Assembly: GCA_937870635.1 (NCBI GenBank) | Contig: CALMZP010000167.1 | Location: forward strand, 40,917 to 104,916 | Direction of reading: 5' to 3' | Source of the DNA: an uncultured Acidobacteriota bacterium | GTDB taxonomy: Bacteria > Acidobacteriota > Thermoanaerobaculia > Gp7-AA8 | Length of the DNA: 64,000 nucleotides | Shown here: positions 11,909 to 62,937 of the stretch, piece by piece | Position numbering within the stretch: position 1 is the first letter of the stretch | Layout: each line of letters begins with the position of its first letter | Notes under the pieces: generated by a model | What the model saw: the letters and a program-made list of their open reading frames with translations, nothing else | The model's database searches: none | What the model was told of the DNA's origin: nothing | Translations under genes and position numbers: made by a program

Positions 11909-12074
11909 CGGAAGTCCTCCGTCAGTGGGAAACAATGACTATACCGCTGATCACCCGGGGGACGGGAATGGTGAATGCTGAGTGGTGAGTGTTGAATGGT
12001 GAACCCAGGGGATGAAAGCGTTCCGCTTCACCACTGACCATTCACCATTCCACATTCACCATTCCCGTCTCTTC

Positions 12075-13607: not shown

Positions 13608-13689
13608 TTTGGACCTTGGACCTTGGACCTTGGACCTTGGGAGAACTCAGGCATCATCCAGGGTCCAAGGTCCAAGGTCCAAGGTCCAA
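13608..13689. repeat. Perfect palindrome of tandem heptamers (GGACCTT)x4 ... (AAGGTCC)x4 filling the divergent intergenic region; its right arm ends on the ATG of the downstream gene
   Basis: tttggaccttggaccttggaccttggaccttgggagaactcaggcatcatccagggtccaaggtccaaggtccaaggtccaATG. Confidence 0.8.
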
Positions 13690-14208: not shown

Positions 14209-14240
14209 AGTGGAGCGCGGGCGACCTCGCCCGCGGGCTG
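14209..14240. repeat. Single degenerate copy of the REP-like palindrome (gtggagcgcgggcgacctcgcccgcgg)
   Basis: Matches the GTGGAGCGCGGGCGA..TCGCCCGCG family that recurs at 25297, 29977, 45615, 53800, 60604 and 62498. Confidence 0.6.
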
Positions 14241-14327
14241 CAACAGGGCTGCTCGAGTGATGCAAGGGCCGACGCGGGCGGGGTTGCCCGCGCTCCACCG
14301 GCTTACTATGCTGCAGCACTCTGACGG

Positions 14328-19613: not shown

Positions 19614-20103
19614 GAGTCGGACGCGCGCGACTCTAACACGCTAACGCCCGGCGCATGTTCTCAGGTGTGGTGCGGATGGGATAGAGGTACACGTGGTCGC
19701 GCCGATGATTCGTACGCAGGCCGATGAGGTCGCGTTCGTCGCCGATGACGTTCATCAGCACCGAGATCGTATGTGCGCGTCTCGTAGCGGTATGCCTGCG
19801 CTGCCATCCGTCCTGATCCGGGGCCGCCGCGAGACCGACGCGTGCGGTGGATGCCATCGAGGGACAAGGAAGGATCGCAGTCACGTGTGACGCCGGCGGC
19901 CTGACGGGGCGCGATTCAGGCCCTGGCATCGCCGAGGAGATCAGGGACGAACTCTTCACCGCGCTTTTTTGACGCGAAAAGACGGCCCCGGCCTGGATCT
20001 GACGATTGATCAGGAAATCCTTACGAATCATGGATTTGCGTATGCGTTGGAGAATCATCCCGGCGGCGGGGCGCAGTTTCGGATCACATGGTGACGTCCC
20101 GGG

Positions 20104-20117
20104 GTGACACCCGTCAC
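20104..20117. promoter_or_regulatory. GTGAC-N4-GTCAC palindrome upstream of the Crp/Fnr gene (candidate autoregulatory operator)
   Basis: ggGTGACacccGTCACa, centred about 83 bp upstream of the ATG at 20194. The same 5-4-5 palindrome occurs twice upstream of PFOR. Confidence 0.35.
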
Positions 20118-20193
20118 ACGGACCGGTGACGCGGCTCCATATCGCGTGGAGATGACCACCTCTAGATTATGTGACGACAGATCGGAGGCAGTT

Positions 20194-20913
20194 ATGCCGT
20201 CGCCCTATAACCTCGAAGTCGAATACAACTGCAGCGAGTGCCGCGTCCGTGCGGAGAGACTCTTCTGCAACATGACCGTGCCGACAGTTGGCGCACTCGA
20301 TACGGTGAAGTTCACCGGTCTCTACCCCAAGGGGTCCCTGCTGTTCGTCGAGGGCGAAGAACCGCGTGGCGTCTTCATTCTCTGCAGTGGCCGGGCGAAG
20401 CTCACGACGTCGTCGACCGAAGGGAAGACGCTGATCGTGAAGATCGCCGAACCCGGGGAAGTGCTCGGGGCCAGTGCGACGATCCTGAACAAGCCGTACG
20501 AGGTTTCCGCTGAAACGATCGAACCGTCGCAGCTCAACTTCATCAAGCGAGAAGACTTCATGAAGTTCCTCGGCGGTCACCCTGAAGCATGCATGCACAC
20601 CGCCCAGCAGCTCAGTGAGAAGTATCACTCCGCTCAGCGCGAGATCCGATCTCTCGGCCTCTCTCAGACGACTTCCGAGAAGCTGGCGCGGCTGCTGCTC
20701 GACTGGTCGGTCAAGAGCGGCGAGACGACCACCAAGGGCGTGCGCATCAAGGTCCTGCTCACGCACGAGGAGATCGCACAGATGATCGGGACGACGCGTG
20801 AGACGGTGACGCGACTGCTCAGCGACTTCAAGCGCCGCAAGATGATCGACGTGAAAGGCTCCAGTCTTTTCATCACCAACAAGTCCGGCCTGGAAAACAT
20901 GGTTTCCGTCTGA
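20194..20913 (+). CDS. Crp/Fnr-family transcriptional regulator with an FNR-like N-terminal Cys cluster
   Basis: cNMP-binding fold plus a C-terminal HTH (TRETVTRLLSDFKRRKMI). N-terminal Cys arrangement is CSEC-x9-C, with a further Cys near residue 130, as in O2-sensing FNR. ggagg RBS followed by an ATG at 20194. Confidence 0.85.
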   Translation: MPSPYNLEVEYNCSECRVRAERLFCNMTVPTVGALDTVKFTGLYPKGSLLFVEGEEPRGVFILCSGRAKLTTSSTEGKTLIVKIAEPGEVLGASATILNKPYEVSAETIEPSQLNFIKREDFMKFLGGHPEACMHTAQQLSEKYHSAQREIRSLGLSQTTSEKLARLLLDWSVKSGETTTKGVRIKVLLTHEEIAQMIGTTRETVTRLLSDFKRRKMIDVKGSSLFITNKSGLENMVSV

Positions 20914-21057
20914 GGACCATGTCACTTCCTCACGTTTGCGTGTGCGAACAGTCACCGAGGATGCGAGGTGTGCCCGCTAACGTCATTCAGTAACAAATCA
21001 TTTCTGGCGAGGTGCGATGTGACTGCGCAGACAGGTGCGGGTACGTTTCAGAATGCG

Positions 21058-21450
21058 ATGCCTTTTGTGGCAGATGTGCTTGGACCGCTCGAGAGGCCTT
21101 CGAAGATCGGCGCTGGCGATGTCCTCTTCCGCGAAGGCGAAGATCCCCGCGGTGTCTACTTTGTCCATGATGGCCGGTTCGACCTGGTGTTCTCGTCGCG
21201 CGGCGGGGATGCGAAACCCCTTCGCACCGCCGACACCGGACAGATCCTCGGCTTGAGCTGCATCGTGTCCAACCGTCCTCATGACTGCTCCGCGACGGCC
21301 AAGTCGGAAGCCACGGTCGGCTTCATTCCGAAAGACGAGTTTCAGAAGGTTCTGGACGCGAACCCGCAGCTCTGGATGACCGTCCTGCAGATGATCAGCA
21401 GCGATATCGGCGCCTGCTGGGACTGCATGCGCAGCCTGGGAAAATGTTGA
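21058..21450 (+). CDS. Stand-alone cyclic-nucleotide-binding-domain protein (no DNA-binding domain)
   Basis: GDVLFREGEDPRGVYFVHDGRF ... TADTGQILG, a cNMP-binding beta-roll. Start uncertain (GTG at 20968 or ATG at 21058). Confidence 0.55.
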   Translation: MPFVADVLGPLERPSKIGAGDVLFREGEDPRGVYFVHDGRFDLVFSSRGGDAKPLRTADTGQILGLSCIVSNRPHDCSATAKSEATVGFIPKDEFQKVLDANPQLWMTVLQMISSDIGACWDCMRSLGKC

Positions 21451-21652
21451 GCCACCCGGCCGGCCGCCCGTGACGCCACCGCCCGGGCCGCCGTGACGCC
21501 TTCCCTTCGCCCACCCGTGACGCCGGCCGCCCGCCGCCCGTGGACGGGGGCGGTTCTGCTTTACGGGCGGTGGGGTGGCGGCGTCACGGGCAGGCGGGCG
21601 AAAGGCATCACGGTGGGAAGTGCGGGCGGCGTCCCGGGGCGGCGAGGGCAGG

Positions 21653-21688
21653 GTGACGAATGTCACGCGCCGGCATGACGCCGGTCAT
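21653..21688. promoter_or_regulatory. Two adjacent nTGAC-N4-GTCAn palindromes 47-82 bp upstream of PFOR (candidate Crp/Fnr-family operator sites)
   Basis: GTGACgaatGTCAC (21653-21666) and ATGACgccgGTCAT (21675-21688), with centres 22 bp apart. They are preceded (21468-21590) by three direct and one inverted copy of CCGTGACGCC at 22-24 bp spacing. Confidence 0.4.
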
Positions 21689-21734
21689 GAGGCGATGTTT
21701 GCGCCGGATTTAACTTGCCGATGGAGGCTGTCCC

Positions 21735-25286
<3,552 letters not shown>

Positions 25287-25296
25287 TGGGTGCTCA

Positions 25297-25376
25297 GTGG
25301 AGCCGCGGGCGATCTCGCCCGCGGTTCTTTCTTATCCGACGAGGGGACCTGCGGGCGGGATCGCCCGCGGCTCCAC
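25297..25376. repeat. Paired REP-like palindromes (the composite is itself palindromic) between convergent genes
   Basis: gtggagccgcgggcgatctcgcccgcgg ... cctgcgggcgggatcgcccgcggctccac. Confidence 0.8.
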
Positions 25377-26443: not shown

Positions 26444-26533
26444 GGGGCCTGGACCCTGGACCCTGGGAGTGACGCGTTGCGAGTCTCACGTGGGAGCTGT
26501 CACTCGTCTCCCAGGGTCCAGGGTCCAGGGCCC
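26444..26533. repeat. Heptamer-based palindrome (GGACCCT)x2-3 ... (AGGGTCC)x3 with an imperfect central segment
   Basis: gggggcctggaccctggaccctgggagtgacg ... gtcactcgtctcccagggtccagggtccagggccc, immediately 3' of the nitroreductase stop. Confidence 0.7.
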
Positions 26534-26538
26534 AATGG

Positions 26539-29825: not shown

Positions 29826-29976
29826 GAGAAACCTCCGTGTCGTGAGAGTAGGTGGGGTGGGTCAACGGCCGGATGACCAGTCGTACGTCGCCATGTGTCG
29901 TCTGTCACATGAGCGAGCAGAACGTGGAGCACGGGCGACCCGCGCCCGCGCCCTTTTGACAACGAGAGACATGAAC

Positions 29977-30052
29977 GGCGCGGGCGAGGTCGCCCGCGCT
30001 CCACTGGATCGCGCGTCAGGCCCCATGGTGGCGGGATCGCCCGCGGCTCCAC
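29977..30052. repeat. Paired (partly degenerate) REP-like palindromes in the intergenic gap inside the radical-SAM / HypC locus
   Basis: ggcgcgggcgaggtcgcccgcgctccac ... ggcgggatcgcccgcggctccac. Confidence 0.7.
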
Positions 30053-31334: not shown

Positions 31335-31476
31335 GCGCTGAGTGAACCTCACCGCTGCACACGAGCAAGTGACGGAAGGAAGAGTGACGTGTGACGATCG
31401 TCACACGCCCGTGTGAGACCGTGTACCGCCGCGGGAGAGCTCCGAATCCATGATCCATTCACCGACGGAGGACATC

Positions 31477-31866
31477 ATGGGAAAAACGATCGAGACGTTG
31501 AACCGGAACGAGCTTATCTCCCGACTGCGTCGTGAGTTGATGCAGGGTACGGACGAAGAAAACTCGGTATGTAAGGTAGCCGCCGAGCGCGGCGTGTTCT
31601 GCAAAGGGTTCACGCGTTACACCGACGAAGAGTTCCGCAAACGCTACGACTGGATCGTGGCCAAGAACCCGGTCATGACCCGCGAGGACCTGGAGCGGAT
31701 CGCCAATGACTGGCAGCTCGGGCAGCAGGAAGTCCACGAGCTGCCCACGGCGTGCGACGTCCAGCAGAAGGTCTACGACACGTGCCGCGGATGGAACGAC
31801 TTCACCAATGAACAGCTCGCGAAGTTTTACTTCCAGCTCACGGGCGACGAGATAGCAATCCTATAG
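31477..31866 (+). CDS. Small hypothetical protein with four Cys residues
   Basis: Perfect GGAGG RBS 6 nt before the ATG at 31477. 129 aa. Divergent from the radical-SAM-like gene. Its stop lies 5 nt before the next start. Confidence 0.55.
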   Translation: MGKTIETLNRNELISRLRRELMQGTDEENSVCKVAAERGVFCKGFTRYTDEEFRKRYDWIVAKNPVMTREDLERIANDWQLGQQEVHELPTACDVQQKVYDTCRGWNDFTNEQLAKFYFQLTGDEIAIL

Positions 31867-31871
31867 ACTTC

Positions 31872-34553
31872 ATGACCATCACGATCTACCCAGCTCAATT
31901 CGAATCCGACGTAGTCCTCCGCAACGGTCGCACCCTCCGCATCAGGCCCGTCCGGCCCGATGACGGCGGAGCGCTCCTAGCGCTTTACCGTGGCCTCTCG
32001 ACGGACAGCCTCTACATGCGCTTCTTCGACACGCGCAGCGCGGACGCCGCCCTGCGCGATGCGCCGGCCGACGTCGACTACTCCGCGGATTTCGGCGTCG
32101 TGGGAGAGATGGTCGGCGGCATCGTCGGCATCGCTCACTACTTCCGTTCGGCACGGCATCAGAACTGCGCCGAAGTGGCGTTCGCAATCGCCGACAAGGC
32201 GCACGGCGGGGGCATCGGCACGCATCTGCTGCAGAAGCTCGCCGACATCGGACGCACGAAGGGCATCGAGGAGTTTCGCGCCGAGGTGCTGCCGGAAAAC
32301 ACGAAGATGCTCGATGTTTTCCTGTCATCCGGATTCGACGTCCGCAGCAGGTCGGCGGAGGGGACGGTGCACGTCTCGTTCGCGATCGCGCCGACGGAGG
32401 AGTATCAGGACCGTGCGGCGGAACGTTCGCGGAAAGCCGCGTATGCGTCCATGCGGTCGATCTTCTCGCCGCAGACGATCGCCGTCGTCGGCGCAAGCCG
32501 CCGGCGCGGGCAGCTCGGCACGGAGATCCTGCAGAACCTGAAGACCACCGGTTTCCGGGGCAGCCTATTCGCCGTCAACCCGAAAGCGACGGAGATCGAC
32601 GGCGTGCCATCCTATCCCACCGTCGATGCCATACCAGGCAACGTCGATCTGGCCATCATCGCCGTGCCGTCCGACGCCGTCGAATCGGTGATCGACGACT
32701 GTGTGACGAAGGGCGTTCCGGCAGCGGTCGTCATCACCGCCGGATTCGGAGAGACCGGCGAGGCCGGAAGGGCAGCCGAACGGCGTCTCCTCGACAAGGT
32801 GCGCGCCTCGGGGATGCGCATGGTCGGCCCGAACTGCATGGGCGTGATCAACAGCGATCCCGCGGTGAACATGCACGCGACGTTCTCATCGATCTTCCCG
32901 CCGCGCGGAAATGTGGCAATGTCAAGCCAGAGCGGGGCGCTGGGGCTCGCCATTCTCGACTACGCGCGCAATCTCAACATCGGGTTTTCGACGTTCATCT
33001 CCGTCGGAAACAAGGCCGACGTCTCCGGCAACGACCTCATCCAGTACTGGGCGGAAGACCCGAACACCGAGGTGATGCTCCTCTATCTCGAGAGCTTCGG
33101 CAATCCGCGCAAGTTCGGCGAGATCGCGCGCCGTGTCGGCCGGAAGAAGCCGATCGTCGCGGTGAAGGCCGGCCGCTCTGCAGCGGGCGCGCGCGCCGCG
33201 TCGTCGCATACCGGTGCGCTGGCCACGAGCGACGCCATCGTCACGAACCTGTTCAAGCAGGCGGGGGTCATCCGCACCGAAACGCTCGAGGAGCTCTTCG
33301 ACGTCGCCGCGCTGCTGGCGAATCAGCCGTTGCCGGCCGGGCGGCGCATCGCGATCGTGACGAACGCCGGAGGCCCGGGCATCCTCGCCGCCGACGCATG
33401 TGAATCGAGCGGCCTGCAGCTTGCCACGATTTGCGAGGAGACGACTGCGAAGCTCCGCGAGTTTCTGCCGGCAGCCGCGAGCGTCGGCAATCCGATCGAC
33501 ATGATCGCCAGCGCGACGGCCGATCAGTACCGCCGCAGCATCGAGCTCGTTCTCGCCGATCCGGGTGTCGACTCGGTCATCATCATCTACATCCCGGTTC
33601 TACCGACGGACGCCCAGGCGGTGGCGGAAGTGATCCGGGAGACCGCCGGAGTCGCCGGAGGCAAGACCCTCATCGCCACATTCATGAGCGCACAGGGCTC
33701 GCCGACCGCCCTCAAGCCCGTCCCCTCGTTCCCCTTTCCTGAACGCGCGGTGGCCGCGCTCGCGCGATCCACGGCGTACGCCGAATGGCGCCGCCGCCCC
33801 GCGGGCAAAGTCGTCAAGTATCCCGACTTCGACCGCGCCGCGATGCGCGCCATCGTCGAGAAGCGCCTCGCGTCCGGCGGCGGCTGGCTCGAGGCGACCG
33901 ACGTCAACGCGCTCTTCGGCGCCGCCAGCATCAAAGTGGCTTCGGTCGAATCGGTGTCCACGGTCTACGAAGCCGTGAATGCCGCCATGCGCATGGGCTT
34001 TCCCGTCGTTCTGAAGGCTCAGGGGTCGGAGCTTCTCCACAAATCCGATGTCGGGGCAGTCAAGCTCGGGATTCAGGACGAACGCGAAATGCGCGAGGCC
34101 TACCTCGAGATGGCCGGCCGCCTCGGAACCAAAATGCAGTCGGCGATCATCCAGCAGATGATCGCCGGCGGCGTCGAGATGATGGCCGGCGCGACGGACG
34201 ATCCCACCTTCGGTCACATCGTCGTTCTCGGCGCGGGCGGGACGCTCGTCGAACTGCTCGGCGACGTCGCCTTCCGCATCCATCCGATGACTGACGTCGA
34301 CGCGGACGACATGTTGCGCGAGATCCGCGTCTCGCGCCTGCTGCAGGGCTACCGCGGATCGAAGCCATGCGATGTCGCCGCCGTGCGCGAAGCGTTGCTG
34401 CGGCTCTCGGCGATGCTGGACGTCTGTCCCGAGATTCGGGAGCTGGACATCAATCCGATCAAGGCGCTGGAACAGGGCGCGATCGTCGTCGACGCCCGCG
34501 TGCGCATCGAACCGATCGCGGCAAGACCGCCGAGCCGTCGAATCTCATATTGA
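31872..34553 (+). CDS. Bifunctional GNAT acetyltransferase / ADP-forming acyl-CoA (acetate-CoA) ligase family protein
   Basis: N-terminal GNAT domain (IRPVRPDDGGALLALY), then a CoA-binding domain and the succinyl-CoA-synthetase-like alpha/beta and ATP-grasp domains. 893 aa. Confidence 0.85.
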   Translation: MTITIYPAQFESDVVLRNGRTLRIRPVRPDDGGALLALYRGLSTDSLYMRFFDTRSADAALRDAPADVDYSADFGVVGEMVGGIVGIAHYFRSARHQNCAEVAFAIADKAHGGGIGTHLLQKLADIGRTKGIEEFRAEVLPENTKMLDVFLSSGFDVRSRSAEGTVHVSFAIAPTEEYQDRAAERSRKAAYASMRSIFSPQTIAVVGASRRRGQLGTEILQNLKTTGFRGSLFAVNPKATEIDGVPSYPTVDAIPGNVDLAIIAVPSDAVESVIDDCVTKGVPAAVVITAGFGETGEAGRAAERRLLDKVRASGMRMVGPNCMGVINSDPAVNMHATFSSIFPPRGNVAMSSQSGALGLAILDYARNLNIGFSTFISVGNKADVSGNDLIQYWAEDPNTEVMLLYLESFGNPRKFGEIARRVGRKKPIVAVKAGRSAAGARAASSHTGALATSDAIVTNLFKQAGVIRTETLEELFDVAALLANQPLPAGRRIAIVTNAGGPGILAADACESSGLQLATICEETTAKLREFLPAAASVGNPIDMIASATADQYRRSIELVLADPGVDSVIIIYIPVLPTDAQAVAEVIRETAGVAGGKTLIATFMSAQGSPTALKPVPSFPFPERAVAALARSTAYAEWRRRPAGKVVKYPDFDRAAMRAIVEKRLASGGGWLEATDVNALFGAASIKVASVESVSTVYEAVNAAMRMGFPVVLKAQGSELLHKSDVGAVKLGIQDEREMREAYLEMAGRLGTKMQSAIIQQMIAGGVEMMAGATDDPTFGHIVVLGAGGTLVELLGDVAFRIHPMTDVDADDMLREIRVSRLLQGYRGSKPCDVAAVREALLRLSAMLDVCPEIRELDINPIKALEQGAIVVDARVRIEPIAARPPSRRISY

Positions 34554-34617
34554 TTTTAGATTTTGGATTTTGGATTTTGGATTCGAGCAAAATCCAAAAT
34601 CCAAAATCAAAAATATG
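34546..34617. terminator. Near-perfect palindrome of TTTTGGA heptamers between convergent stops
   Basis: catattgattttagattttggattttggattttggattcgagcaaaatccaaaatccaaaatcaaaaatatg. Confidence 0.6.
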
Positions 34618-41273: not shown

Positions 41274-41373
41274 GATTTTGGATTTTGGATTTTGGATTTT
41301 GGATTTTGGTTTCACGTCAATCCCCGTGAGGATGTCAAATCCAAAATCCAAAATCTAAAATCTAAAATCTGAA
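41274..41373. terminator. Palindrome of (GATTTTG)x5 ... (CAAAATC/CTAAAAT)x5 between convergent genes; overlaps the last codons of the minus-strand gene
   Basis: gattttggattttggattttggattttggattttggtttcacgtcaatccccgtgaggatgtcaaatccaaaatccaaaatctaaaatctaaaatctgaa. Confidence 0.6.
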
Positions 41374-44368: not shown

Positions 44369-45052
44369 ATGCCGATCGAAGTTCCGATTCCCTTCAGCTC
44401 GATTCCTCTCCTGGCAGCGCTGCGGAAGGAGGACCGCGAGCTGCTTGCCCCGCTCTGTCGGCTTCGCGGTCATGAGAAGGGCGATGCAATCTTTCACGAG
44501 GGCGATCCTGCCGACCGTATCTACTTCGTACACGTCGGCCGCGTGAAGATCATGAAATCGGCCGGAGGCCGCGACGTCATCCTGGAGATCCTCGGCCCCG
44601 GGGAGCCGGTGGGCGCGGTGGCCGTCTTCGAGCGCCGGCCGTTCCCGGCGAGCGCGATCACCCTGGAGCCCTCGTCGATTCTGTCGATCCCGGAGCGGGA
44701 GTTCTTCACGCTGCTCGAGTCGCGTCCCGAGATGATGAGACTCGTGCTGGCCGGGCTCACTTATCGCCTGATGATGGTCAACAAGCGTCTCGCTGACATG
44801 ACGGGTTCAGCCGAGTACCGCACAGCGCGGCTTTTCCTGACATTGTCCGACCGCGTCGGTTTGACGGTCGGGGGGGGCGTCCGGATCCCGCTGCCGCTCT
44901 CGCGACAGGAGATCGCGGATCTCATCGGAACCACGCTGGAGACGGCCATCCGGCTCATGAGCCGTTGGCAGAAGGACGATGTGGTGAGGACCGAGAAGGA
45001 CGGCTTTTTCGTTCCCGACATCGGTCATCTGCGCGAGCTGACCGTCGAGTAA
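44369..45052 (+). CDS. Crp/Fnr-family transcriptional regulator
   Basis: cNMP-binding fold plus a C-terminal HTH (RQEIADLIGTTLETAIRLMSRW). Confidence 0.85.
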   Translation: MPIEVPIPFSSIPLLAALRKEDRELLAPLCRLRGHEKGDAIFHEGDPADRIYFVHVGRVKIMKSAGGRDVILEILGPGEPVGAVAVFERRPFPASAITLEPSSILSIPEREFFTLLESRPEMMRLVLAGLTYRLMMVNKRLADMTGSAEYRTARLFLTLSDRVGLTVGGGVRIPLPLSRQEIADLIGTTLETAIRLMSRWQKDDVVRTEKDGFFVPDIGHLRELTVE

Positions 45053-45112
45053 TACTGCCCGTCGTGACTCGTATCACTTACCCCGCCTTGCCTGAGCGCG
45101 CACTGTCTGCAC

Positions 45113-45614: not shown

Positions 45615-45698
45615 GTTGGAGCCGCGGGCGATCTCGCCCGCGGTTTTTTGTTACGACGAGAAAAGCGAAACCCGCGGGCGGATCGCCCGCGGCTCCAC
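45615..45698. repeat. Paired REP-like palindromes
   Basis: gttggagccgcgggcgatctcgcccgcgg ... cccgcgggcggatcgcccgcggctccac. Confidence 0.8.
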
Positions 45699-46173: not shown

Positions 46174-46694
46174 CTCGGTCCCATCTCTTGCAGCGAAACG
46201 ACACCGCAGGCGATTCGGCCGCCGGCGTTGCCCGTCGGCTGCGTCACCAGATCGTCGGGGTTCGCGTGCAGGATGATCGCCTTGCCGATGGCGGAGTTCT
46301 GTCCCGGCGAGACGGTGATCGACCGGGTGATGAAGCTCGTGTGCACTTCACCGTTCGCGCCGGCCGTCACGTTGCCGAAATCTCCGGCGTGATGCGAGGC
46401 GGCGTCAGGCGATGAATGCGGCATGCTGGTCGGGTTGAAATGCCCCCCGGCGGCATTGCCGTTGTCGGCGCAATTCCCGAATTCGTGGACATGGAAGCCA
46501 TGCACCCCGGGCGGGACGCCCGTCAGGTCCACCTTCACTTCAACGCCTCCATCTTTGAGCTCCTGCAGATGGACCGTTCCTTGAGCGGTCGAGCTCCCCA
46601 TGGGTGCCAGCGCCGTCATGGCAGCGGGGCGGCGGGCCGTGGCGCACCCTCCAAGAACCAGAAGCGGGATCGCAATCAGAATGACTTTTTTCAT
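46170..46694 (-). CDS. sodC: Cu/Zn superoxide dismutase
   Basis: GFHVHEFGNC, GGHFNP, HAGDFGN and ILHANPDD metal-ligand motifs. Perfect ggaggag RBS. Confidence 0.9.
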   Translation of the reverse strand: MKKVILIAIPLLVLGGCATARRPAAMTALAPMGSSTAQGTVHLQELKDGGVEVKVDLTGVPPGVHGFHVHEFGNCADNGNAAGGHFNPTSMPHSSPDAASHHAGDFGNVTAGANGEVHTSFITRSITVSPGQNSAIGKAIILHANPDDLVTQPTGNAGGRIACGVVSLQEMGPR

Positions 46695-46881
46695 TTCTCC
46701 TCCAAACCTCTCTTTTTGCCCTGCGAAGATTATTCCGGGTGACACCGATCACGCATGCCTGTGGGGTTTCCTCACGCCGCCCGCCGTGCGGAAACGCCAC
46801 ACTGACCGCGTGATAAAAAAGTTCGCTCCCTGGCTGTTTGCCGTCGCGTTCCTGTTCTGGATCGGCACGACGATCGCCTGA

Positions 46882-53800: not shown

Positions 53801-53831
53801 GTGGAGCGCGGGCGACGTCGCCCGCGCTCCA
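53800..53831. repeat. Perfect 32-bp REP-like palindrome GTGGAGCGCGGGCGAC|GTCGCCCGCGCTCCAC
   Basis: This is the exact self-complementary sequence and serves as the archetype of the family. Confidence 0.9.
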
Positions 53832-56566: not shown

Positions 56567-58636
56567 ATGTCGAACTCGATCTATCTGATTCCGCTGGCCG
56601 GGGTCCTCGCCCTGATCTTTGCCCTGGTCAGGAGTTCCTGGATCAGCAGGCAGGACGCCGGGACGCCCGAGATGAAAGTCATCGCCGGCCACATCCGCGA
56701 AGGGGCGATGGCATTCCTCACCCGCGAATATCGCGTCCTGGCGGTATTCGTCGTCGTGGTCTCGGTCCTCCTCGCCTGGGCGAACGCCGCGCGCGCCGAA
56801 AGCTCCTGGCTGATCGGCGTCTCCGTGGCCACCGGCGCGTTCTGCTCGGCCCTGGCCGGCTGGTTCGGAATGAGCGTGGCGACGCATGCAAACGTGCGCA
56901 CGGCGGCAGCCGCGCGGACCAGCATGAACGGCGCGCTGCGCCTCGCATTCGCCGGCGGCGCCGTGATGGGCTTTGCCGTCGTCGGCCTCGGACTACTCGG
57001 ACTGTCGCTTCTGTACATCCTCTACGAGCGCTTGTTCGCCTCCGCCGATCCGCAGGCGACGATGATCCGCAACATCAACGTGCTCTCCGGCTTCTCGTTC
57101 GGGGCGAGCTCCATCGCGCTCTTCGCGAGAGTCGGCGGCGGCATTTACACGAAGGCGGCCGACGTCGGCGCTGACCTCGTCGGCAAGCTCGAGGCGGGAA
57201 TCCCCGAAGACGATCCACGCAACCCGGCCGTCATCGCAGACAACGTCGGCGACAACGTCGGCGACGTCGCCGGCATGGGCGCCGATCTCTTCGAGTCCTA
57301 CGTCGGCTCCATCGTCGGCACCCTCGTCCTCGGCATGGTGGCGACGCAGGTTGGCGGTTCCAGCTATACACCGATGCTCGTGCTCTTTCCGCTCGTGCTC
57401 GCGGCGGTCGGCATCGTGCTCTCGCTCGTGGGTACGACTCTGGTCCGGATGAAAGAGGACGGTGATCCCGGCCGGGCGCTGCAGGCGGGCCCGATCGTCG
57501 CCGCCGTTCTGACTCTCATCGCCATCTGGTTCATCGCGCAGCGCATGCTGCCGGGGACCTACCTGCTCGAAGGGAGAGAGTTCAACGCCACGGGCGTCTT
57601 TTTCGCTACCGTCGCCGGACTCGTCGCCGGCGTCCTGATCGGACTGATCACCGAGTACTACACGTCCGAGGCGCGTGGTCCGGCGCGCGGGATCGCGCGG
57701 GACTCGCTGACGGGCGCGGCGACGAACATCATCAGCGGGCTGGCGGTAGGCATGAGGTCGACCGCGCTTCCGATCGTCGTCCTCGTCGTGGCGATCATCG
57801 TCTCGTATCGCCAGGCGGGCCTGTACGGGATCGCGATCGCCGCGCTGGGCATGTTGCTCACCACGGGAATCCAGCTCGCGGTCGATGCCTACGGCCCGAT
57901 CGCAGACAACGCCGGCGGCATCGCGGAGATGAGCCATCTCGGCAAGGAAGTGCGGGCACGGACGGACAAGCTCGACGCCGTCGGTAACACGACCGCCGCG
58001 ATCGGGAAAGGGTTCGCGATCGGGTCAGCGGCACTCACTGCGCTGGCGCTCTTCGCGGCCTTCAAGGCGACCGTCGGTCTGAAAGTGATCGACCTCAGCG
58101 ACCCCGATGTCATGGGAGGCCTCTTCCTTGGCGGCATGATGCCGTTCCTCTTCTCGGCGATGTCCATGAAGGCGGTGGGACGCGCGGCGTTCAAGATGAT
58201 CGAAGAGGTACGCCGCCAGTTCAAGGAAATACCCGGACTGATGGAGGGGACAGGGAAGGCCGACTACGCGCGTTGCGTCGACATCTCCACGCAGGCCGCG
58301 ATCAAGGAGATGGTCATCCCGGGATTGCTCGCCGTCGTCGCTCCGGTCGTGGTTGGCCTGTACAGCGTTCCTGCGCTCGGCGGTCTGCTGGCGGGCGTCA
58401 CTGTGACGGGCGTGCTGATGGCGATCTTCATGGCCAACGCCGGCGGCGCCTGGGACAACGCGAAGAAGCACATCGAGGCGGGAGCGCACGGCGGGAAGGG
58501 CTCCGATGCTCATCGTGCCGCGGTGGTCGGTGACACGGTCGGCGATCCGTTCAAGGACACATCCGGACCGAGCCTGAACATCCTCATCAAGCTGATGTCG
58601 GTGGTGGCGCTGATCGTGGCGCCGCTGCTGATTTAG
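56567..58636 (+). CDS. hppA: Membrane-bound pyrophosphatase, K+-dependent subfamily (Ala in [10 protein letters not shown])
   Basis: [24 protein letters not shown] and [21 protein letters not shown] motifs. GGAGA RBS followed by an ATG at 56567. Confidence 0.9.
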
Positions 58637-58639
58637 CTC

Positions 58640-58800
58640 CAGTTTTATCCTGAAGAGATCCCAGTTCATCCTGAGGAGCTCGAGTTTATCCTGAGGAGCG
58701 AAGCGACGAAGGATCTCCCGGTGCACCGGCAGCGCCTGAAGATTGAGCGCTGCAAGTGCACCGGAGATCCTTCGCTTCGCTCAGGATAAACTTCCGAAAC
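58640..58800. terminator. Composite element: three direct 14-mers (TT[T/C]ATCCTGA[A/G]GAG), a GC-rich hairpin, then one inverted 14-mer
   Basis: ttttatcctgaagag / ttcatcctgaggag / tttatcctgaggag ... gcgaagcgacgaaggatctcccggtgcac...gtgcaccggagatccttcgcttcgc tcaggataaa. Confidence 0.5.
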
Positions 58801-60303: not shown

Positions 60304-61467
60304 ATGGCGGCCGGTGTACCACTGATTGATGTCATCCATAAGTTACTGGAATCAAGCGACTTGACGTTCCATGACTTCATGGAGATGGCGCTCTATCACC
60401 CCGAACACGGGTACTACGCCCGGGCCGAAAACCCGGTCGGGAAGGAGGGTGATTACGTCACTTCGCCCAGTCTTTCGCCCCTCTTTTCGGATACGCTGAG
60501 CCTGCTGGTTACCGAATTTGCGAGCCGTGGCGGCGACGAGGTGTCCACGGTTGTGGACATTGGCTGCGGGGATGGCTCGCTCATCCATTCTTTATATGAC
60601 GCGGTTGGAGCGCGGGCGATCTCGCCCGCGACCGAGATGGCGGGCGAGATCGCCCGCCCTCCACGTTTCTACGGGGTCGACCGCTCTCTGAGTCGGGTCA
60701 AGAGAGGGGATGGCGTCCAATTTGCCGGAAGCCTGGCCGAGGTTCCGCGGGAGGGTCAGCATCTCCTGATCGCGAACGAGCTCTTTGACGCTCTTCCGGT
60801 CCATCGCCTGGTCCAGCGTGGCGAGCATCTTCACGAACTGTGGGTGACGGAGCGCAATGGCGAGCTCGACTGGAGCGAGCATGAGGCCCCTGCGGCATTC
60901 GAAGACTATTTCGCGGCGAGAGACATCGAACTGGCCGACGGCCAGTTCGTCGACGTCTCGCTCGAGTGGGAATCGCAATTCGAGGAGATGTGCGGTTTCT
61001 TACGTCGGGGCGTGATTGTCGTCTTTGATTACGGATACCCTGAAAAGAGACTCTTCGACCCGCGGGTTCGGCGCTTCGGCACTTCAGCGTCTTATCGACA
61101 GCAGCGCGTCTCTCGAGATCTTCTGGTCGATCCTGGCCTTCAGGACCTGACAGCACACATCAATTTCACGGATCTGATCCGCGCGGGCGAAAGGAAGGGG
61201 TTACGGACAGTCTTCTTCGATCGGCAGGCGAAGTTCCTTCTCGCCCTGGGCGGCGCGGAGCACGATCTGCTGCGGCCGATCGACCAGGGCATGGATCAGA
61301 GGAAGATCGCCTCGCTCGAAGGCGGACTGGCCTTTCTGCAGCAGCGCGAGGATGCGAAGCGGCTTCTGCTGCCGGACGGGATTGGAGAGGACATCCGGGT
61401 CCTCGTGCAGATCAAAGACCTCGACGATTCGGGGTGGTCTTTTCAAAGACCGCTCTTCAATCGTTGA
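60304..61467 (+). CDS. MidA / NDUFAF7-like SAM-dependent methyltransferase (DUF185) encoded immediately upstream of nuoA
   Basis: FHDFMEMALYHPEHGYY, DFVTSPxLSPLF-like and IANELFDALPVHR motifs. Contains an in-frame REP-derived insertion (AVGARAISPATEMAGEIARPP). Confidence 0.8.
   Translation: MAAGVPLIDVIHKLLESSDLTFHDFMEMALYHPEHGYYARAENPVGKEGDYVTSPSLSPLFSDTLSLLVTEFASRGGDEVSTVVDIGCGDGSLIHSLYDAVGARAISPATEMAGEIARPPRFYGVDRSLSRVKRGDGVQFAGSLAEVPREGQHLLIANELFDALPVHRLVQRGEHLHELWVTERNGELDWSEHEAPAAFEDYFAARDIELADGQFVDVSLEWESQFEEMCGFLRRGVIVVFDYGYPEKRLFDPRVRRFGTSASYRQQRVSRDLLVDPGLQDLTAHINFTDLIRAGERKGLRTVFFDRQAKFLLALGGAEHDLLRPIDQGMDQRKIASLEGGLAFLQQREDAKRLLLPDGIGEDIRVLVQIKDLDDSGWSFQRPLFNR
60604..60664. repeat. 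Paired REP-like palindromes located inside the MidA coding sequence, in-frame
   Basis: gttggagcgcgggcgatctcgcccgcg ... ggcgggcgagatcgcccgccctccac. Confidence 0.8.
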
Positions 61468-61885: not shown

Positions 61886-62937
61886 TCGAGAATCGCTTCG
61901 ACTCGAACGTCCTCACCACCTCCGTCGACAAGATTTTCAACTGGGCCCGCAAGTCATCGCTCTGGCCGATGCAGTTCGGCCTCGCCTGCTGCGCGATCGA
62001 GATGATGGCCGTCCTCGATCCGCGTCACGACATGGCTCGGTTCGGCGCGGAGGTCTTCCGCGCCACGCCGCGCCAGGCGGATCTCATGATCGTCTCCGGC
62101 ACGGTCACGGAGAAGATGGCGCCGATCGTCCGCCGGCTGTGGGATCAGATGCCCGAGCCGAAATGGGTGATCGCCATGGGTTCGTGCGCGACTTGCGGCG
62201 GCCCTTACGATACCTACGCCGTCACGCAGGGCGTCGACCGCCTGATCCCTGTCGATGTCTATATCCCCGGTTGCCCGCCGCGCCCCGAGGCTCTCATCTG
62301 GGGGCTGATGGAGCTGCAGAAGAAGATCGAGAAGATGCACATCCTCCGCAAAGGAGGAGAGGCGTACGACTTCGCGCGCGCCGCGGTGCGCGATTCGCTC
62401 CGGCCGCAGCACGAAGGTCCCGCCCTTCGCGCCGAGCAGGCCGCCGCGCAGCTCAAGCCCGCACCGGTATCGGGCGTGAAAAGAGAGGCGAAGCCGAGTG
62501 GGGCGCGGGCGACCCCGCCAGCGCTTTCCGCTCCGGCCCCAACAACCGCGGGCGAGGTCGCCCGCGCTCCACAGGATGCTGCCACTTCCACGGCTGTCCT
62601 GGAAGCCGATGTGCAGCAGGCGGCGGCGCCGGAAGTCGTGCCGGGCGACACGACCGATGGTGCCTCTCCCGCTGTCCCTTTTCACAAGGAAGATCTCACC
62701 CTGCCCGAGCGCATGCAGATGGCCGAGCAGATGGGCGGCAAGTTCGAGACGAAGCTCTTCGCGGCGATGGCGCAGACCGATTGCGGTGCCTGCGGCTGGG
62801 ACTGCGAAGGGTACGCGAACGCCCTCGCTACGGGCGAGACGAAAGACATCTCTCTCTGCGTCCCCGGCGAAGCAGAGACGCTCGATGAGCTGAAGAAGCT
62901 GATGGAACAGGCAGGGAAGGAGTACGAAGGGGCCTGA
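61876..62937 (+). CDS. nuoB: NADH-quinone oxidoreductase subunit B (N2 cluster motifs CCAIEM...GSCATCGG...PGCPP) with a C-terminal extension of about 170 aa: an Ala/Pro-rich linker plus a Cys-rich putative Fe-S domain
   Basis: Canonical NuoB core up to about residue 185. The tail then runs ...[10 protein letters not shown]...[54 protein letters not shown] at 61876 overlaps the nuoA stop. Confidence 0.85.
62498..62572. repeat. Paired (left copy degenerate) REP-like palindromes inside the nuoB linker, in-frame
   Basis: gtggggcgcgggcgaccccgccagcgct ... aaccgcgggcgaggtcgcccgcgctccac, encoding [25 protein letters not shown]. Confidence 0.7.

What the first reader, a model, noticed from the sequence alone, without database searches (positions are those of the whole stretch)
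20104..21734. FNR-like (Cys-cluster) regulator plus a stand-alone cNMP-binding protein upstream of PFOR, with shared nTGAC-N4-GTCAn palindromes and an array of CCGTGACGCC repeats
Seen in sequence. The Crp/Fnr regulator (20194-20913) has an N-terminal C-x2-C-x9-C...C arrangement. The same 14-bp palindrome occurs at three places:
- upstream of the regulator itself: GTGACacccGTCAC (20104-20117)
- upstream of the PFOR gene, first site: GTGACgaatGTCAC (21653-21666)
- upstream of the PFOR gene, second site: ATGACgccgGTCAT (21675-21688)
Further upstream there are three direct and one inverted CCGTGACGCC copies at roughly two-helical-turn spacing (21468-21590).

Established knowledge: FNR-type sites are 5-4-5 palindromes (TTGAT-N4-ATCAA), and FNR senses O2 via an N-terminal [4Fe-4S]. 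PFOR is an O2-sensitive enzyme.

Inference: an oxygen-responsive FNR-like factor with a variant half-site (TGAC) autoregulates and activates PFOR. The repeated half-site array may recruit further dimers or the adjacent DNA-binding-less cNMP protein.
Basis: partly seen in the sequence, partly recalled or inferred. Interest (0 to 1): 0.6.

Follow-up and report, generated by a model that had tools for sequence, protein, structure and literature searches.

The report
Cysteine-bearing Crp/Fnr regulator of fermentation genes
An uncultured acidobacterium (class Thermoanaerobaculia) carries a Crp/Fnr-family regulator with an FNR-like cysteine cluster but a CRP-like DNA-reading helix. Its paired binding sites sit at fixed distances in front of its own gene and of oxygen-sensitive fermentation genes, and the nearby "repeat array" is only a hairpin.

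Summary
The interpretation needs three corrections.

1. **The conserved motif is CRP-type.** It is tGTGAY-N4-RTCACa (GTGA-N6-TCAC), not a TGAC variant of the FNR box. The regulator's recognition helix is RETVTR, as in CRP (RETVGR), not FNR (ETISR).

2. **The working unit is a 36-bp composite.** A strong site 1 is followed, exactly 22 bp later, by a weaker site 2. A TAnnnT -10 hexamer starts 58-59 bp after site 1 starts. If the -10 assignment is right, the sites are centred near -63.5 and -41.5. The composite is kept before the regulator gene in 31 of 31 orthologous loci. It is also kept before PFOR, a multi-subunit 2-oxoacid:ferredoxin oxidoreductase (next to feoB), tandem-Usp genes and an acetyl-CoA synthetase operon.

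3. **The CCGTGACGCC "array" is a hairpin.** It forms the arms of a 200-nt hairpin. Orthologs have no hairpin there, or an unrelated one.

Four cysteines (C13, C16, C25, C64) are inherited together across the subfamily, and C64 replaces FNR's C122. Oxygen or redox sensing is plausible but untested.

The DNA-binding-less cNMP protein is a truncated Crp/Fnr paralog that always sits just upstream of PFOR.

The parts
20104..20117 (.). Site 1 of the regulator's own promoter, GTGACACCCGTCAC (strong CRP-type box)
   Evidence: An exact GTGA-N6-TCAC lies within 220 bp upstream of the regulator gene in 37 of the 38 sequences checked: the window plus 36 of 37 orthologous loci, down to 51% protein identity. 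The spacer sequence varies.
20126..20139 (.). Site 2 of the regulator's promoter, GTGACGCGGCTCCA (left half conserved, right half degenerate)
   Evidence: A GTGA or GTGC starts exactly 22 bp after the start of site 1 in 31 of 31 loci.
20163..20168 (+). -10-like hexamer TAGATT, followed by the conserved TGTGACG (20170-20176)
   Evidence: A TAnnnT hexamer lies 58-59 bp after the start of site 1 in 26 of 31 loci. No full sigma-70 consensus with a -35 was found. The transcription start is inferred, not mapped.
20194..20913 (+). Crp/Fnr-family regulator, 239 aa, with cysteines C13, C16, C25 and C64 and recognition helix R202-E-T-V-T-R207
   Evidence: Pfam assigns cNMP_binding, HTH_Crp_2 and Crp. 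The AlphaFold model has pLDDT 88, and Foldseek finds GlxR, MtbCRP and holo-FNR. It scores below the cut-off of every NCBIfam equivalog.
20920..20955 (.). Cluster of (G)TCAC half-sites in the regulator-cNMP spacer (GTCAC-N4-CTCACGTTTGCGTGTGC-N5-GTCAC)
   Evidence: The pattern is shared with L001, L002, L003 and L007. Other orthologs show different TCAC clusters or no spacer at all. Its function is not resolved.
21019..21450 (+). DNA-binding-less Crp/Fnr paralog, 143 aa: beta-roll plus full C-helix, with cysteines C81, C90, C133 and C136
   Evidence: It is 35% identical to regulator residues 47-155 and stops at the end of the C-helix. The model shows a beta-roll and helix 116-142. The best fold matches are the N-terminal halves of CRP proteins. 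Only 106 homologs were found.
21453..21652 (+). Long imperfect hairpin whose arms are about 24-nt tandem repeats; it contains all four CCGTGACGCC copies
   Evidence: Inverted repeats are listed. The RNA fold gives -154.6 kcal/mol, z -6.6. The element is not conserved in orthologs. No Rfam family matches.
21653..21666 (.). Site 1 of the PFOR promoter, GTGACGAATGTCAC
   Evidence: It is conserved before PFOR in 14 orthologous loci.
21675..21688 (.). Site 2 of the PFOR promoter, ATGACGCCGGTCAT
   Evidence: It starts exactly 22 bp after site 1 in 14 of 14 loci. The identical 14-mer occurs in L047.
21711..21716 (+). -10-like hexamer TAACTT of the PFOR promoter
   Evidence: A TAnnnT hexamer starts 58 bp after site 1 in 13 of 14 loci and 59 bp in L019. 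The A and the final T are invariant in alignment A3. This places site 2 at -41.5 if the hexamer spans -12 to -7 (inferred).
21735..25286 (+). Pyruvate:ferredoxin (flavodoxin) oxidoreductase, 1183 aa
   Evidence: Supported by Pfam and NCBIfam TIGR02176 at 1731 bits.
31391..31426 (+). Composite operator (site 1 GTGACGATCGTCAC; site 2 GTGAGACCGTGTAC at +22) facing the 129-aa gene and the GNAT/acyl-CoA-synthetase operon
   Evidence: Seen. It is conserved in L048, L049 and L020.
31477..34553 (+). Putative target operon: a 129-aa protein of unknown family, then a GNAT + ADP-forming acetyl-CoA synthetase-like fusion (893 aa)
   Evidence: Pfam and NCBIfam hits are.
45064..45077 (.). Single site GTGACTCGTATCAC, 36 nt before a 158-aa HTH_8 protein gene and just after a second Crp/Fnr gene
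   Evidence: Seen. There is no second site at +22.
46739..46752 (.). Single site before the sodC lipoprotein gene (- strand, ATG near 46692), abutting an AATAAT -10-like hexamer
   Evidence: Seen. The position suggests repression (inferred).

Best explanation
The gene at 20194-20913 encodes a Crp/Fnr-family transcription factor. It combines an FNR-like sensory unit with a CRP-like DNA-binding helix.

**DNA binding (well supported by comparison).** The protein most likely binds as dimers to tGTGAY-N4-RTCACa boxes. At the promoters it probably activates, the box is part of a rigid 36-bp composite: a strong site 1, an 8-bp gap, then a weaker site 2 ((A/G/T)TGAY-N4-RTCAT). A -10 hexamer lies 22 bp further on. 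If the -10 assignment is right, the two dimers sit near -63.5 and -41.5. That is the classical tandem geometry of activator-dependent promoters that lack a -35 element.

**Targets (inferred from site position).** Through such composites the regulator would control its own gene and switch on PFOR. In relatives the same composite precedes a multi-subunit 2-oxoacid:ferredoxin oxidoreductase beside feoB, and tandem universal stress protein genes. In this window and some relatives it precedes an acetyl-CoA-synthetase-like operon. A single box abutting the sodC promoter suggests repression there.

**Sensing (inference only).** The signal is probably read by a metal centre held by C13, C16, C25 and C64. 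The most likely centre is an oxygen- or redox-labile Fe-S cluster. On that reading the regulon is an anaerobic fermentation and iron-uptake programme.

**Other elements.** The CCGTGACGCC repeats are not part of the switch. They form a lineage-specific hairpin inserted between the small gene's stop codon and the PFOR operator. The adjacent 143-aa protein is a sensor-plus-dimerisation-helix paralog without a DNA-binding domain. Its role, whether co-sensor or modulator, is unknown.
For: **Motif and regulator are linked.**
- 37 of the 38 sequences checked (the window plus 36 of 37 orthologous loci) have an exact GTGA-N6-TCAC upstream of the regulator gene, with varying spacers.
- In 492 kb of window plus loci there are 61 GTGAY-N4-RTCAC sites. 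55 lie in the roughly 17% of sequence that is intergenic.
- The window holds 5 sites against 0.25 expected.

**Geometry is rigid.** Site 2 starts at +22 in 31 of 31 regulator promoters and 14 of 14 PFOR promoters, and TAnnnT lies at +58 or +59. An ungapped alignment of PFOR, OFOR and Usp promoters keeps GTGA, TCAC, TGA, the C and T of site 2, and the A and T of the -10 invariant.

**The helix fits the box.** The subfamily's helix is almost always RE[TS]V[TS]R. CRP-type RE-x-R helices go with TGTGA boxes, and Arg180 correlates with the G of the half-site (PMC3590769, PMC1274295).

**Targets.** Site-adjacent genes are.

**Cysteines travel together.**
- 68 of 103 representatives of 50%-identity clusters have all four cysteines.
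- Only one has the three N-terminal cysteines without C64. That one has Arg at position 64 and Cys at position 115, the FNR arrangement of R72 and C122.
- Fisher p = 4e-12.
- FnrP uses C14, C17, C25 and C113 for its [4Fe-4S] cluster (PMC4771820).

**No cAMP pocket.** The phosphate-binding Arg of CRP is absent; the segment reads PYEVSA.

**No -35 element.** The consensus scan found none, as expected for activator-dependent promoters.
Against: - No transcription start is mapped, so -41.5 and -63.5 rest on a -10 assignment.
- No binding, cofactor or expression data exist for any family member.
- The fourth ligand differs from every characterised FNR.
- The N-terminal 20 residues are modelled with low confidence (pLDDT 60-69), and cysteine-to-cysteine distances could not be measured.
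- Site 2 lacks the leading G, so it may belong to a different Crp/Fnr paralog. One such gene, with helix LETAIR, lies at 44378-45052.
- The co-occurrence statistic ignores shared ancestry.
- Only regulator-centred loci were sampled, which inflates the intergenic enrichment.
- feoB among the targets also fits an iron or Fe-S status sensor.
Confidence: 0.55

Rival explanations
1. The DNA-binding and regulon picture is the same, but the four-cysteine unit does not sense oxygen. It could bind structural zinc, act as a thiol-disulfide redox switch, report iron or Fe-S sufficiency (IscR- or RirA-like logic), or sense NO.
For: - feoB (ferrous iron uptake) and Fe-S-rich oxidoreductases are among the site-adjacent genes.
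- The fourth ligand position (C64) is unlike FNR's.
- Fe-S-containing Crp-family NO sensors are proposed in Desulfovibrio (PMC5701242).
- The cysteine region is modelled with low confidence.
Against: - The C-x2-C-x8-C spacing is close to FnrP's C-x2-C-x7-C oxygen-sensing cluster (PMC4771820).
- No hcp, nor or other nitrosative-stress genes were seen next to sites.
- The mix of PFOR, Usp, feoB and a repression-type site at sodC is the classic content of an anaerobic regulon. This last point rests on general knowledge of FNR and Anr regulons, not on a test made here.
Confidence: 0.25
2. The boxes, or at least the weaker site 2 with ATGA/TTGA half-sites, are bound by another Crp/Fnr paralog. The gene at 20194 would then only be a neighbour or one of two partners.
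For: - Site 2 consistently lacks the G that an Arg180-type residue reads.
- The window encodes a second Crp/Fnr protein with an FNR-like E-x-x-I-R helix.
- L027 and L036 carry a 39%-identical paralog nearby, and L042 has two copies.
Against: - Site 1 upstream of the regulator gene is kept in essentially every ortholog, whatever the neighbouring genes are.
- The RE-x3-R helix matches GTGA.
- Weak promoter-proximal sites that depend on a strong upstream site are common in tandem CRP/FNR promoters (general knowledge, not tested here).
Confidence: 0.12
3. The CCGTGACGCC repeats would be an array of half-sites that recruits further regulator dimers or the DNA-binding-less cNMP protein.
For: - Each repeat contains GTGAC, the preferred half-site.
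- The spacing is 23-24 bp, close to the 22-bp spacing of sites 1 and 2.
Against: - The repeats pair with inverted copies into a 200-nt hairpin.
- In L002, L045 and L047 the small gene's stop codon abuts or overlaps site 1, with no array at all.
- L013, L016 and L019 have hairpins of unrelated sequence without GTGAC.
- The window has many similar repeat-armed hairpins after other genes.
- No full palindrome occurs in the array.
Confidence: 0.04

Closest known systems
FNR / FnrP / FnrN-type oxygen sensors (E. coli FNR; Paracoccus FnrP with Cys14, 17, 25 and 113)
   Same: - The fold is Crp/Fnr, and holo-FNR aligns over 236 columns including the N-terminal extension.
- There is an N-terminal C-x2-C-x(7-8)-C cluster plus a fourth cysteine in the beta-roll.
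- The arrangement is autoregulatory.
- The target set looks anaerobic.
- Promoters seem to lack a -35 element and have a site near -41.5.
   Different: - The fourth cysteine is C64, which aligns with FNR R72. The FNR C122 position is Asn here.
- The recognition helix is RETVTR, not ETISR.
- The box is GTGA-N6-TCAC, not TTGAT-N4-ATCAA.
- It scores 54 bits against the 228-bit cut-off of the NCBIfam Fnr model.
- The operator is a fixed 22-bp tandem.
Bacillus subtilis-type Fnr
   Same: It is an Fe-S oxygen sensor of the Crp/Fnr family that recognises the CRP-type box TGTGA-N6-TCACA (bioRxiv 10.1101/2020.01.03.894683).
   Different: Bacillus Fnr holds its cluster with three C-terminal cysteines (227, 230, 235) and Asp141. 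The protein here has no C-terminal cysteines; its cysteines are N-terminal plus C64.
CRP / GlxR / Mycobacterium CRP (cAMP receptor proteins)
   Same: - They are the best sequence and fold matches among solved structures.
- They share the RE-x3-R recognition helix.
- They share the TGTGA-N6-TCACA-type box.
   Different: - The cAMP phosphate-binding Arg-Ser/Thr motif is missing here (PYEVSA).
- The protein here has an extra cysteine-bearing N-terminal extension.
- It scores 64 bits against the 266-bit CRP cut-off.
HcpR of Desulfovibrio and other delta-proteobacteria
   Same: It is a Crp/Fnr regulator of anaerobes with CRP-like TGTGA-N6-TCACA or TTGAC-N4-GTCAA boxes. The R180/E181 residues track the box sequence (PMC1274295, PMC5701242).
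   Different: - HcpR proteins were described as lacking the FNR-type cysteine motif (PMC1274295).
- They control hcp and nitrosative-stress genes, which were not seen next to sites here.

Membership tests
Crp/Fnr superfamily | An N-terminal beta-roll (cNMP_binding), a long dimerisation helix and a C-terminal winged HTH | tested here: met
   Pfam assigns PF00027, PF13545 and PF00325. The model has pLDDT 88 with a beta-roll, helix 130-156 and an HTH. Foldseek TM-scores are about 0.8 to CRP, GlxR and FNR.
FNR-type oxygen sensor | N-terminal cysteine cluster (C-x2-C-x5-C in FNR, C-x2-C-x7-C in FnrP) | tested here: inconclusive
   C13-x2-C16-x8-C25 is present. It is kept in 74-78 of 103 subfamily representatives. 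The spacing is one residue longer than in FnrP (PMC4771820).
FNR-type oxygen sensor | A fourth ligand cysteine at the position of FNR C122 / FnrP C113 | tested here: not met
   Asn115 aligns with FNR C122. A different cysteine, C64, co-occurs with the N-terminal three.
FNR-type oxygen sensor | E-x-x-S-R recognition helix and a TTGAT-N4-ATCAA box | tested here: not met
   The helix is RETVTR. The conserved box is GTGA-N6-TCAC.
FNR-type oxygen sensor | An oxygen-labile [4Fe-4S] cluster that controls dimerisation and DNA binding | not testable with these tools
   This needs anaerobic purification and spectroscopy.
CRP (cAMP receptor protein) | Cyclic-nucleotide phosphate-binding cassette with Arg82/Ser83 | tested here: not met
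   The aligned segment is PYEVSA where MtbCRP has PRTSSA. The subfamily consensus is PYExTAE. The NCBIfam CRP score is 63.6 against a cut-off of 266.
CRP (cAMP receptor protein) | RE-x3-R recognition helix and a TGTGA-N6-TCACA box | tested here: met
   R202, E203 and R207 are nearly invariant. The box consensus is tGTGAY-N4-RTCACa.
Bacillus-type Fnr | Three C-terminal cysteines plus an Asp as cluster ligands | tested here: not met
   There is no cysteine after residue 133, and the C-terminus reads ...KSGLENMVSV.
Tandem activator-dependent CRP/FNR promoter | Promoter-proximal site centred near -41.5 and a second site upstream on the same face | tested here: inconclusive
   The fixed spacings are site 1, +22 to site 2, and +58/59 to TAnnnT. 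They give -41.5/-42.5 and -63.5/-64.5 only if the -10 assignment is right. No transcription start data exist.
Cyclic-nucleotide-binding protein (the 143-aa product) | cNMP_binding fold with a functional phosphate-binding cassette | tested here: not met
   The fold is met. In the cassette Gln replaces the Glu and Cys90 replaces the Arg (GQILGLSC...HDCSATA). C90 is kept in 96 of 102 homologs.
Intrinsic terminator (the 21453-21652 hairpin) | A G+C-rich stem followed by a run of U | tested here: not met
   The stem is strong, but it is followed by GGGTGACGAAT. The scan flagged only a small inner stem at 21533-21554.

The most novel reading that the evidence does not exclude
The regulator and the DNA-binding-less paralog could form a two-sensor system. 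The 143-aa protein keeps the beta-roll and the whole dimerisation helix. It lines the former cAMP pocket with cysteines: C81 and C90, the latter at the Arg82 position. In two thirds of homologs there is also a CxxC on the last turns of the helix. It would bind its own metal or redox cofactor. It would then modulate the full-length regulator, either through mixed dimers or through contacts at the fixed 22-bp tandem operator. PFOR expression would then integrate two signals. A Crp/Fnr sensor half acting in trans on a full-length family member does not, to my knowledge, have a characterised precedent.
Probability: 0.15. Interest if true: 0.65.

Novelty: new variant of a known kind. Interest (0 to 1): 0.42.

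Why it matters
Thermoanaerobaculia are widespread, almost uncultured Acidobacteriota, and nothing is known about how they regulate genes. This locus offers four things:

- a testable regulon that links a sensor to pyruvate oxidation, acetate/ATP formation, ferrous iron uptake and stress proteins;
- a natural hybrid of FNR-type sensing and CRP-type DNA reading, in which the fourth cluster ligand has moved to another beta-strand, which bears on how Fe-S sensors evolve within one fold;
- an unusually rigid two-site operator;
- a conserved sensor-only paralog whose role is open.

It remains a variant of a very well-known regulator family, and no part of the mechanism has been shown experimentally.

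Tried and rejected
- **Cysteine distances.** Model coordinates are not exposed, so distances between C13, C16, C25 and C64 could not be measured. Only pLDDT and secondary structure were usable.
- **Promoter and terminator scan.** The sigma-70 scan found no promoter. It flagged only a small inner stem as terminator-like.
- **Rfam.** Nothing was found at E<=1 for 19800-21900.
- **Literature.** Searches found no paper on this regulator family or on Thermoanaerobaculia gene regulation. Two searches failed on syntax.
- **Metagenome scan.** The scan with the 129-aa protein gave only three loci, two of them usable.
- **Stop-codon finder.** My automatic finder for the small gene's stop codon picked the wrong frame in several loci. 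Only the unambiguous cases (L013, L016, L019) were used from it; for L002, L045 and L047 the junction was read directly from the sequence.
- **Rejected: chance.**
- **Rejected: a TGAC-N4-GTCA reading of the motif.** The inner positions are only Y/R-biased.
- **Rejected: cAMP as effector.** No phosphate-binding Arg is present.
- **Rejected: the 141-aa minus-strand ORF at 19633-20058 as a gene.** It is antisense to a histidine-kinase remnant.
Full report
**Observation**

- The three 14-bp palindromes lie at 20104-20117, 21653-21666 and 21675-21688.
- Three direct copies and one inverted copy of CCGTGACGCC are present.
- TGAC-N4-GTCA occurs four times in the 64-kb window against 1.0 expected.
- CCGTGACGCC occurs four times against 0.46 expected.

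Pfam confirms three genes: a Crp/Fnr regulator at 20194-20913, a protein with only a cNMP_binding domain, and a single-polypeptide PFOR at 21735-25286. NCBIfam agrees on PFOR. The cysteine spacing is C13-x2-C16-x8-C25, not x9. Homolog names place the window in Thermoanaerobaculia, phylum Acidobacteriota.

**What the motif really is**

A genome-collection scan returned 37 orthologous loci, with 51-92% regulator identity.
- 36 of them, like the window, have an exact GTGA-N6-TCAC within 220 bp upstream of the regulator gene.
- The six inner bases differ from locus to locus. Position 5 is a pyrimidine in 95% of half-sites, and a flanking T/A is present in about half.
- The conserved unit is therefore tGTGAY-N4-RTCACa, a CRP-type box.

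The refined pattern occurs five times in the window against 0.25 expected, and all five copies are intergenic. In 492 kb of window plus loci there are 61 copies. 55 of them lie in the roughly 17% of sequence not covered by my crude gene calls. Several of the six "coding" cases are known upstream sites overlapped by spurious ORFs. This sample is centred on the regulator, so the enrichment is inflated. It still includes many sites that are not next to the regulator.

The protein fits this box.
- Its recognition helix is R202-E-T-V-T-R207.
- RE[TS]V[TS]R is nearly invariant in 103 representatives of 50%-identity clusters.
- CRP has RETVGR and FNR has ETISR. CRP-type and FNR-type helices go with CRP-type and FNR-type boxes (PMC3590769). 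Arg180 tracks the G of the half-site (PMC1274295).
- The best sequence and fold matches among solved structures are actinobacterial CRP and GlxR. Holo-FNR aligns over the whole length, including the N-terminal extension.

**A composite operator with fixed geometry**

Upstream of the regulator gene, a second GTGA (GTGC in three loci) starts exactly 22 bp after site 1 in 31 of 31 loci. A TAnnnT hexamer starts 58-59 bp after site 1 in 26 of them.

Upstream of PFOR the picture is the same in 14 of 14 loci:
- site 1;
- an 8-bp gap;
- 22 bp;
- a TAnnnT hexamer.

The same arrangement, column for column, precedes two other gene classes in more distant relatives. One is a multi-subunit 2-oxoacid:ferredoxin oxidoreductase divergent from feoB (L024, L027, L036). 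The other is a set of tandem-Usp genes (L023, L025). An ungapped alignment of 13 such promoters keeps the following invariant: GTGA, TCAC, the TGA and the C/T of site 2, and the A/T of the -10.

In the window the composite also faces a 129-aa gene followed by a GNAT + ADP-forming acetyl-CoA-synthetase-like fusion (31391-31426). It is kept there in three further loci.

If the hexamer spans -12 to -7, site 2 is centred at -41.5 or -42.5 and site 1 at -63.5 or -64.5. No -35-like element is found. This is the geometry expected for activation by promoter-proximal and upstream dimers. The transcription starts are inferred, not mapped.

Two further boxes in the window are single.
- One lies 36 nt before a small HTH_8 protein gene (45064).
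- One abuts an AATAAT hexamer before a sodC lipoprotein gene (46739). That position would suggest repression.

**The cysteines**

Among the 103 representatives, C13, C16, C25 and C64 are present in 78, 74, 74 and 81 sequences. C133 is not conserved.
- All four cysteines occur together in 68 sequences.
- Only one sequence has the three N-terminal cysteines without C64. That sequence has Arg at position 64 and Cys at position 115, which are exactly the FNR residues R72 and C122 at the aligned positions.
- The association is strong (Fisher p = 4e-12), although the sequences are not independent.

This makes a four-ligand unit likely, with the fourth ligand moved to another strand of the beta-roll. 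FnrP binds its oxygen-labile [4Fe-4S] cluster with C14, C17, C25 and C113 (PMC4771820), so the N-terminal spacing here is only one residue longer. The CRP phosphate-binding Arg is missing (PYEVSA), so cAMP is an unlikely effector.

Whether the centre is an Fe-S cluster, and whether it reports oxygen, redox state, NO or iron, cannot be decided here.

**The repeat array**

The four CCGTGACGCC copies lie in two arms, each made of about 24-nt tandem units, that pair with each other.
- Region 21445-21655 folds into one almost continuous hairpin of -154.6 kcal/mol, z = -6.6.
- It fills exactly the space between the small gene's stop codon (21450) and site 1 (21653).
- In L002, L045 and L047 that space is absent; the stop codon abuts or overlaps site 1.
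- In L013, L016 and L019 the space holds hairpins of unrelated sequence built from other short repeats.
- The window contains many similar hairpins after other genes, mostly with heptamer-repeat arms.

The array is therefore a lineage-specific hairpin element and not a conserved binding platform. It has no U-tract, so calling it a terminator is not justified either.

**The DNA-binding-less protein**

- It is 35% identical to regulator residues 47-155 and ends where the regulator's dimerisation helix ends.
- Its model shows a beta-roll and a helix running from residue 116 to the C-terminus at 142. It best matches the N-terminal halves of CRP proteins.
- Only 106 homologs were found, all about 130-160 aa. 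Every source name that gives an organism says Thermoanaerobaculia.
- C81 and C90 are kept in 85 and 96 of 102 sequences. C90 sits at the position of the cAMP-binding Arg. A CxxC on the last helix turns is present in two thirds of them.
- Its gene always lies immediately upstream of PFOR, even where the regulator is not adjacent, as in L047.
- A divergent sensor-only gene follows the regulator in L023 without PFOR. L025 and L042 show a similar cNMP-like match just downstream of the regulator.

Its function is unknown. A co-sensor or modulator role is the most novel reading that is still open.

**Comparison and verdict**

[quoted passage not shown] It fails the defining tests of FNR (ligand position, helix, box), of CRP (cAMP pocket) and of Bacillus Fnr (C-terminal cluster). 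It scores below the cut-off of every NCBIfam equivalog.

It works most like an FNR-type anaerobic activator that reads a CRP-type box. Bacillus Fnr sets a functional precedent for that combination (bioRxiv 10.1101/2020.01.03.894683). I found no paper on this subfamily.

I rate it a new variant of a known kind, of moderate interest.

Noticed in passing
window 11966-12064, 13609-13689, 26450-26534, 34552-34614, 41274-41370, 58635-58800: Many intergenic hairpins have one arm made of a tandem heptamer repeat (for example GAATGGT x5, TTGGACC x4.6, GATTTTG x4.6) and the other arm its complement. They often start right after a stop codon. Fold z-scores reach -10 to -12. Orthologous loci have the same kind of hairpin with unrelated unit sequences (L014, L015, L016, L019, L021). 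I do not know a described family for these.
   Followed up: partly
window 14212-14296, 25300-25327, 29975-30002, 45619-45646, 53803-53830, 60607-60662, 62500-62570: A REP-like G+C-rich palindrome, GGAGCGCGGGCGAnnTCGCCCGCGCTCC, recurs. There are 17 strand-matches at up to 3 mismatches against 0.01 expected. One copy sits directly after the PFOR stop codon.
   Followed up: partly
window 19844-20091: Only the last 83 or so codons of a histidine kinase survive here, in two reading frames. The kinase is intact (423 aa) directly upstream of the regulator in L003. The 141-aa minus-strand ORF at 19633-20058 is probably spurious.
   Followed up: yes
window 44378-45052 (+): A second Crp/Fnr-family gene of 224 aa has no N-terminal cysteines and an FNR-like helix, LETAIR. 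It is followed at once by a GTGAY-N4-RTCAC box and a 158-aa protein with a Fis-type HTH_8.
   Followed up: partly
window 46692-46752 (- strand): A Cu-Zn superoxide dismutase lipoprotein gene (sodC) has a single box immediately upstream of an AATAAT hexamer. The position suggests repression by the same regulator.
   Followed up: partly
window 31872-34553: An 893-aa fusion joins an N-terminal GNAT acetyltransferase domain to an ADP-forming acyl-CoA synthetase. This is the Pat-like architecture with the domain order reversed. It is preceded by a 129-aa protein of no known family.
   Followed up: no
window 20170-20176 and orthologs: The heptamer TGTGACG is conserved directly after the -10-like hexamer of the regulator promoter in L001-L019. 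It is a half-site at the inferred transcription start and could mediate negative autoregulation.
   Followed up: no
L024, L027 and L036, around the OFOR start codon: The -10-like hexamer CAAGCT lies only 7 nt before the ATG of the multi-subunit 2-oxoacid:ferredoxin oxidoreductase. That suggests a leaderless transcript.
   Followed up: no
L045 1-5026: In one relative, the genes on the other side of the regulator encode a contractile injection system: phage sheath, gp19-like tube, eCIS core and baseplate.
   Followed up: no
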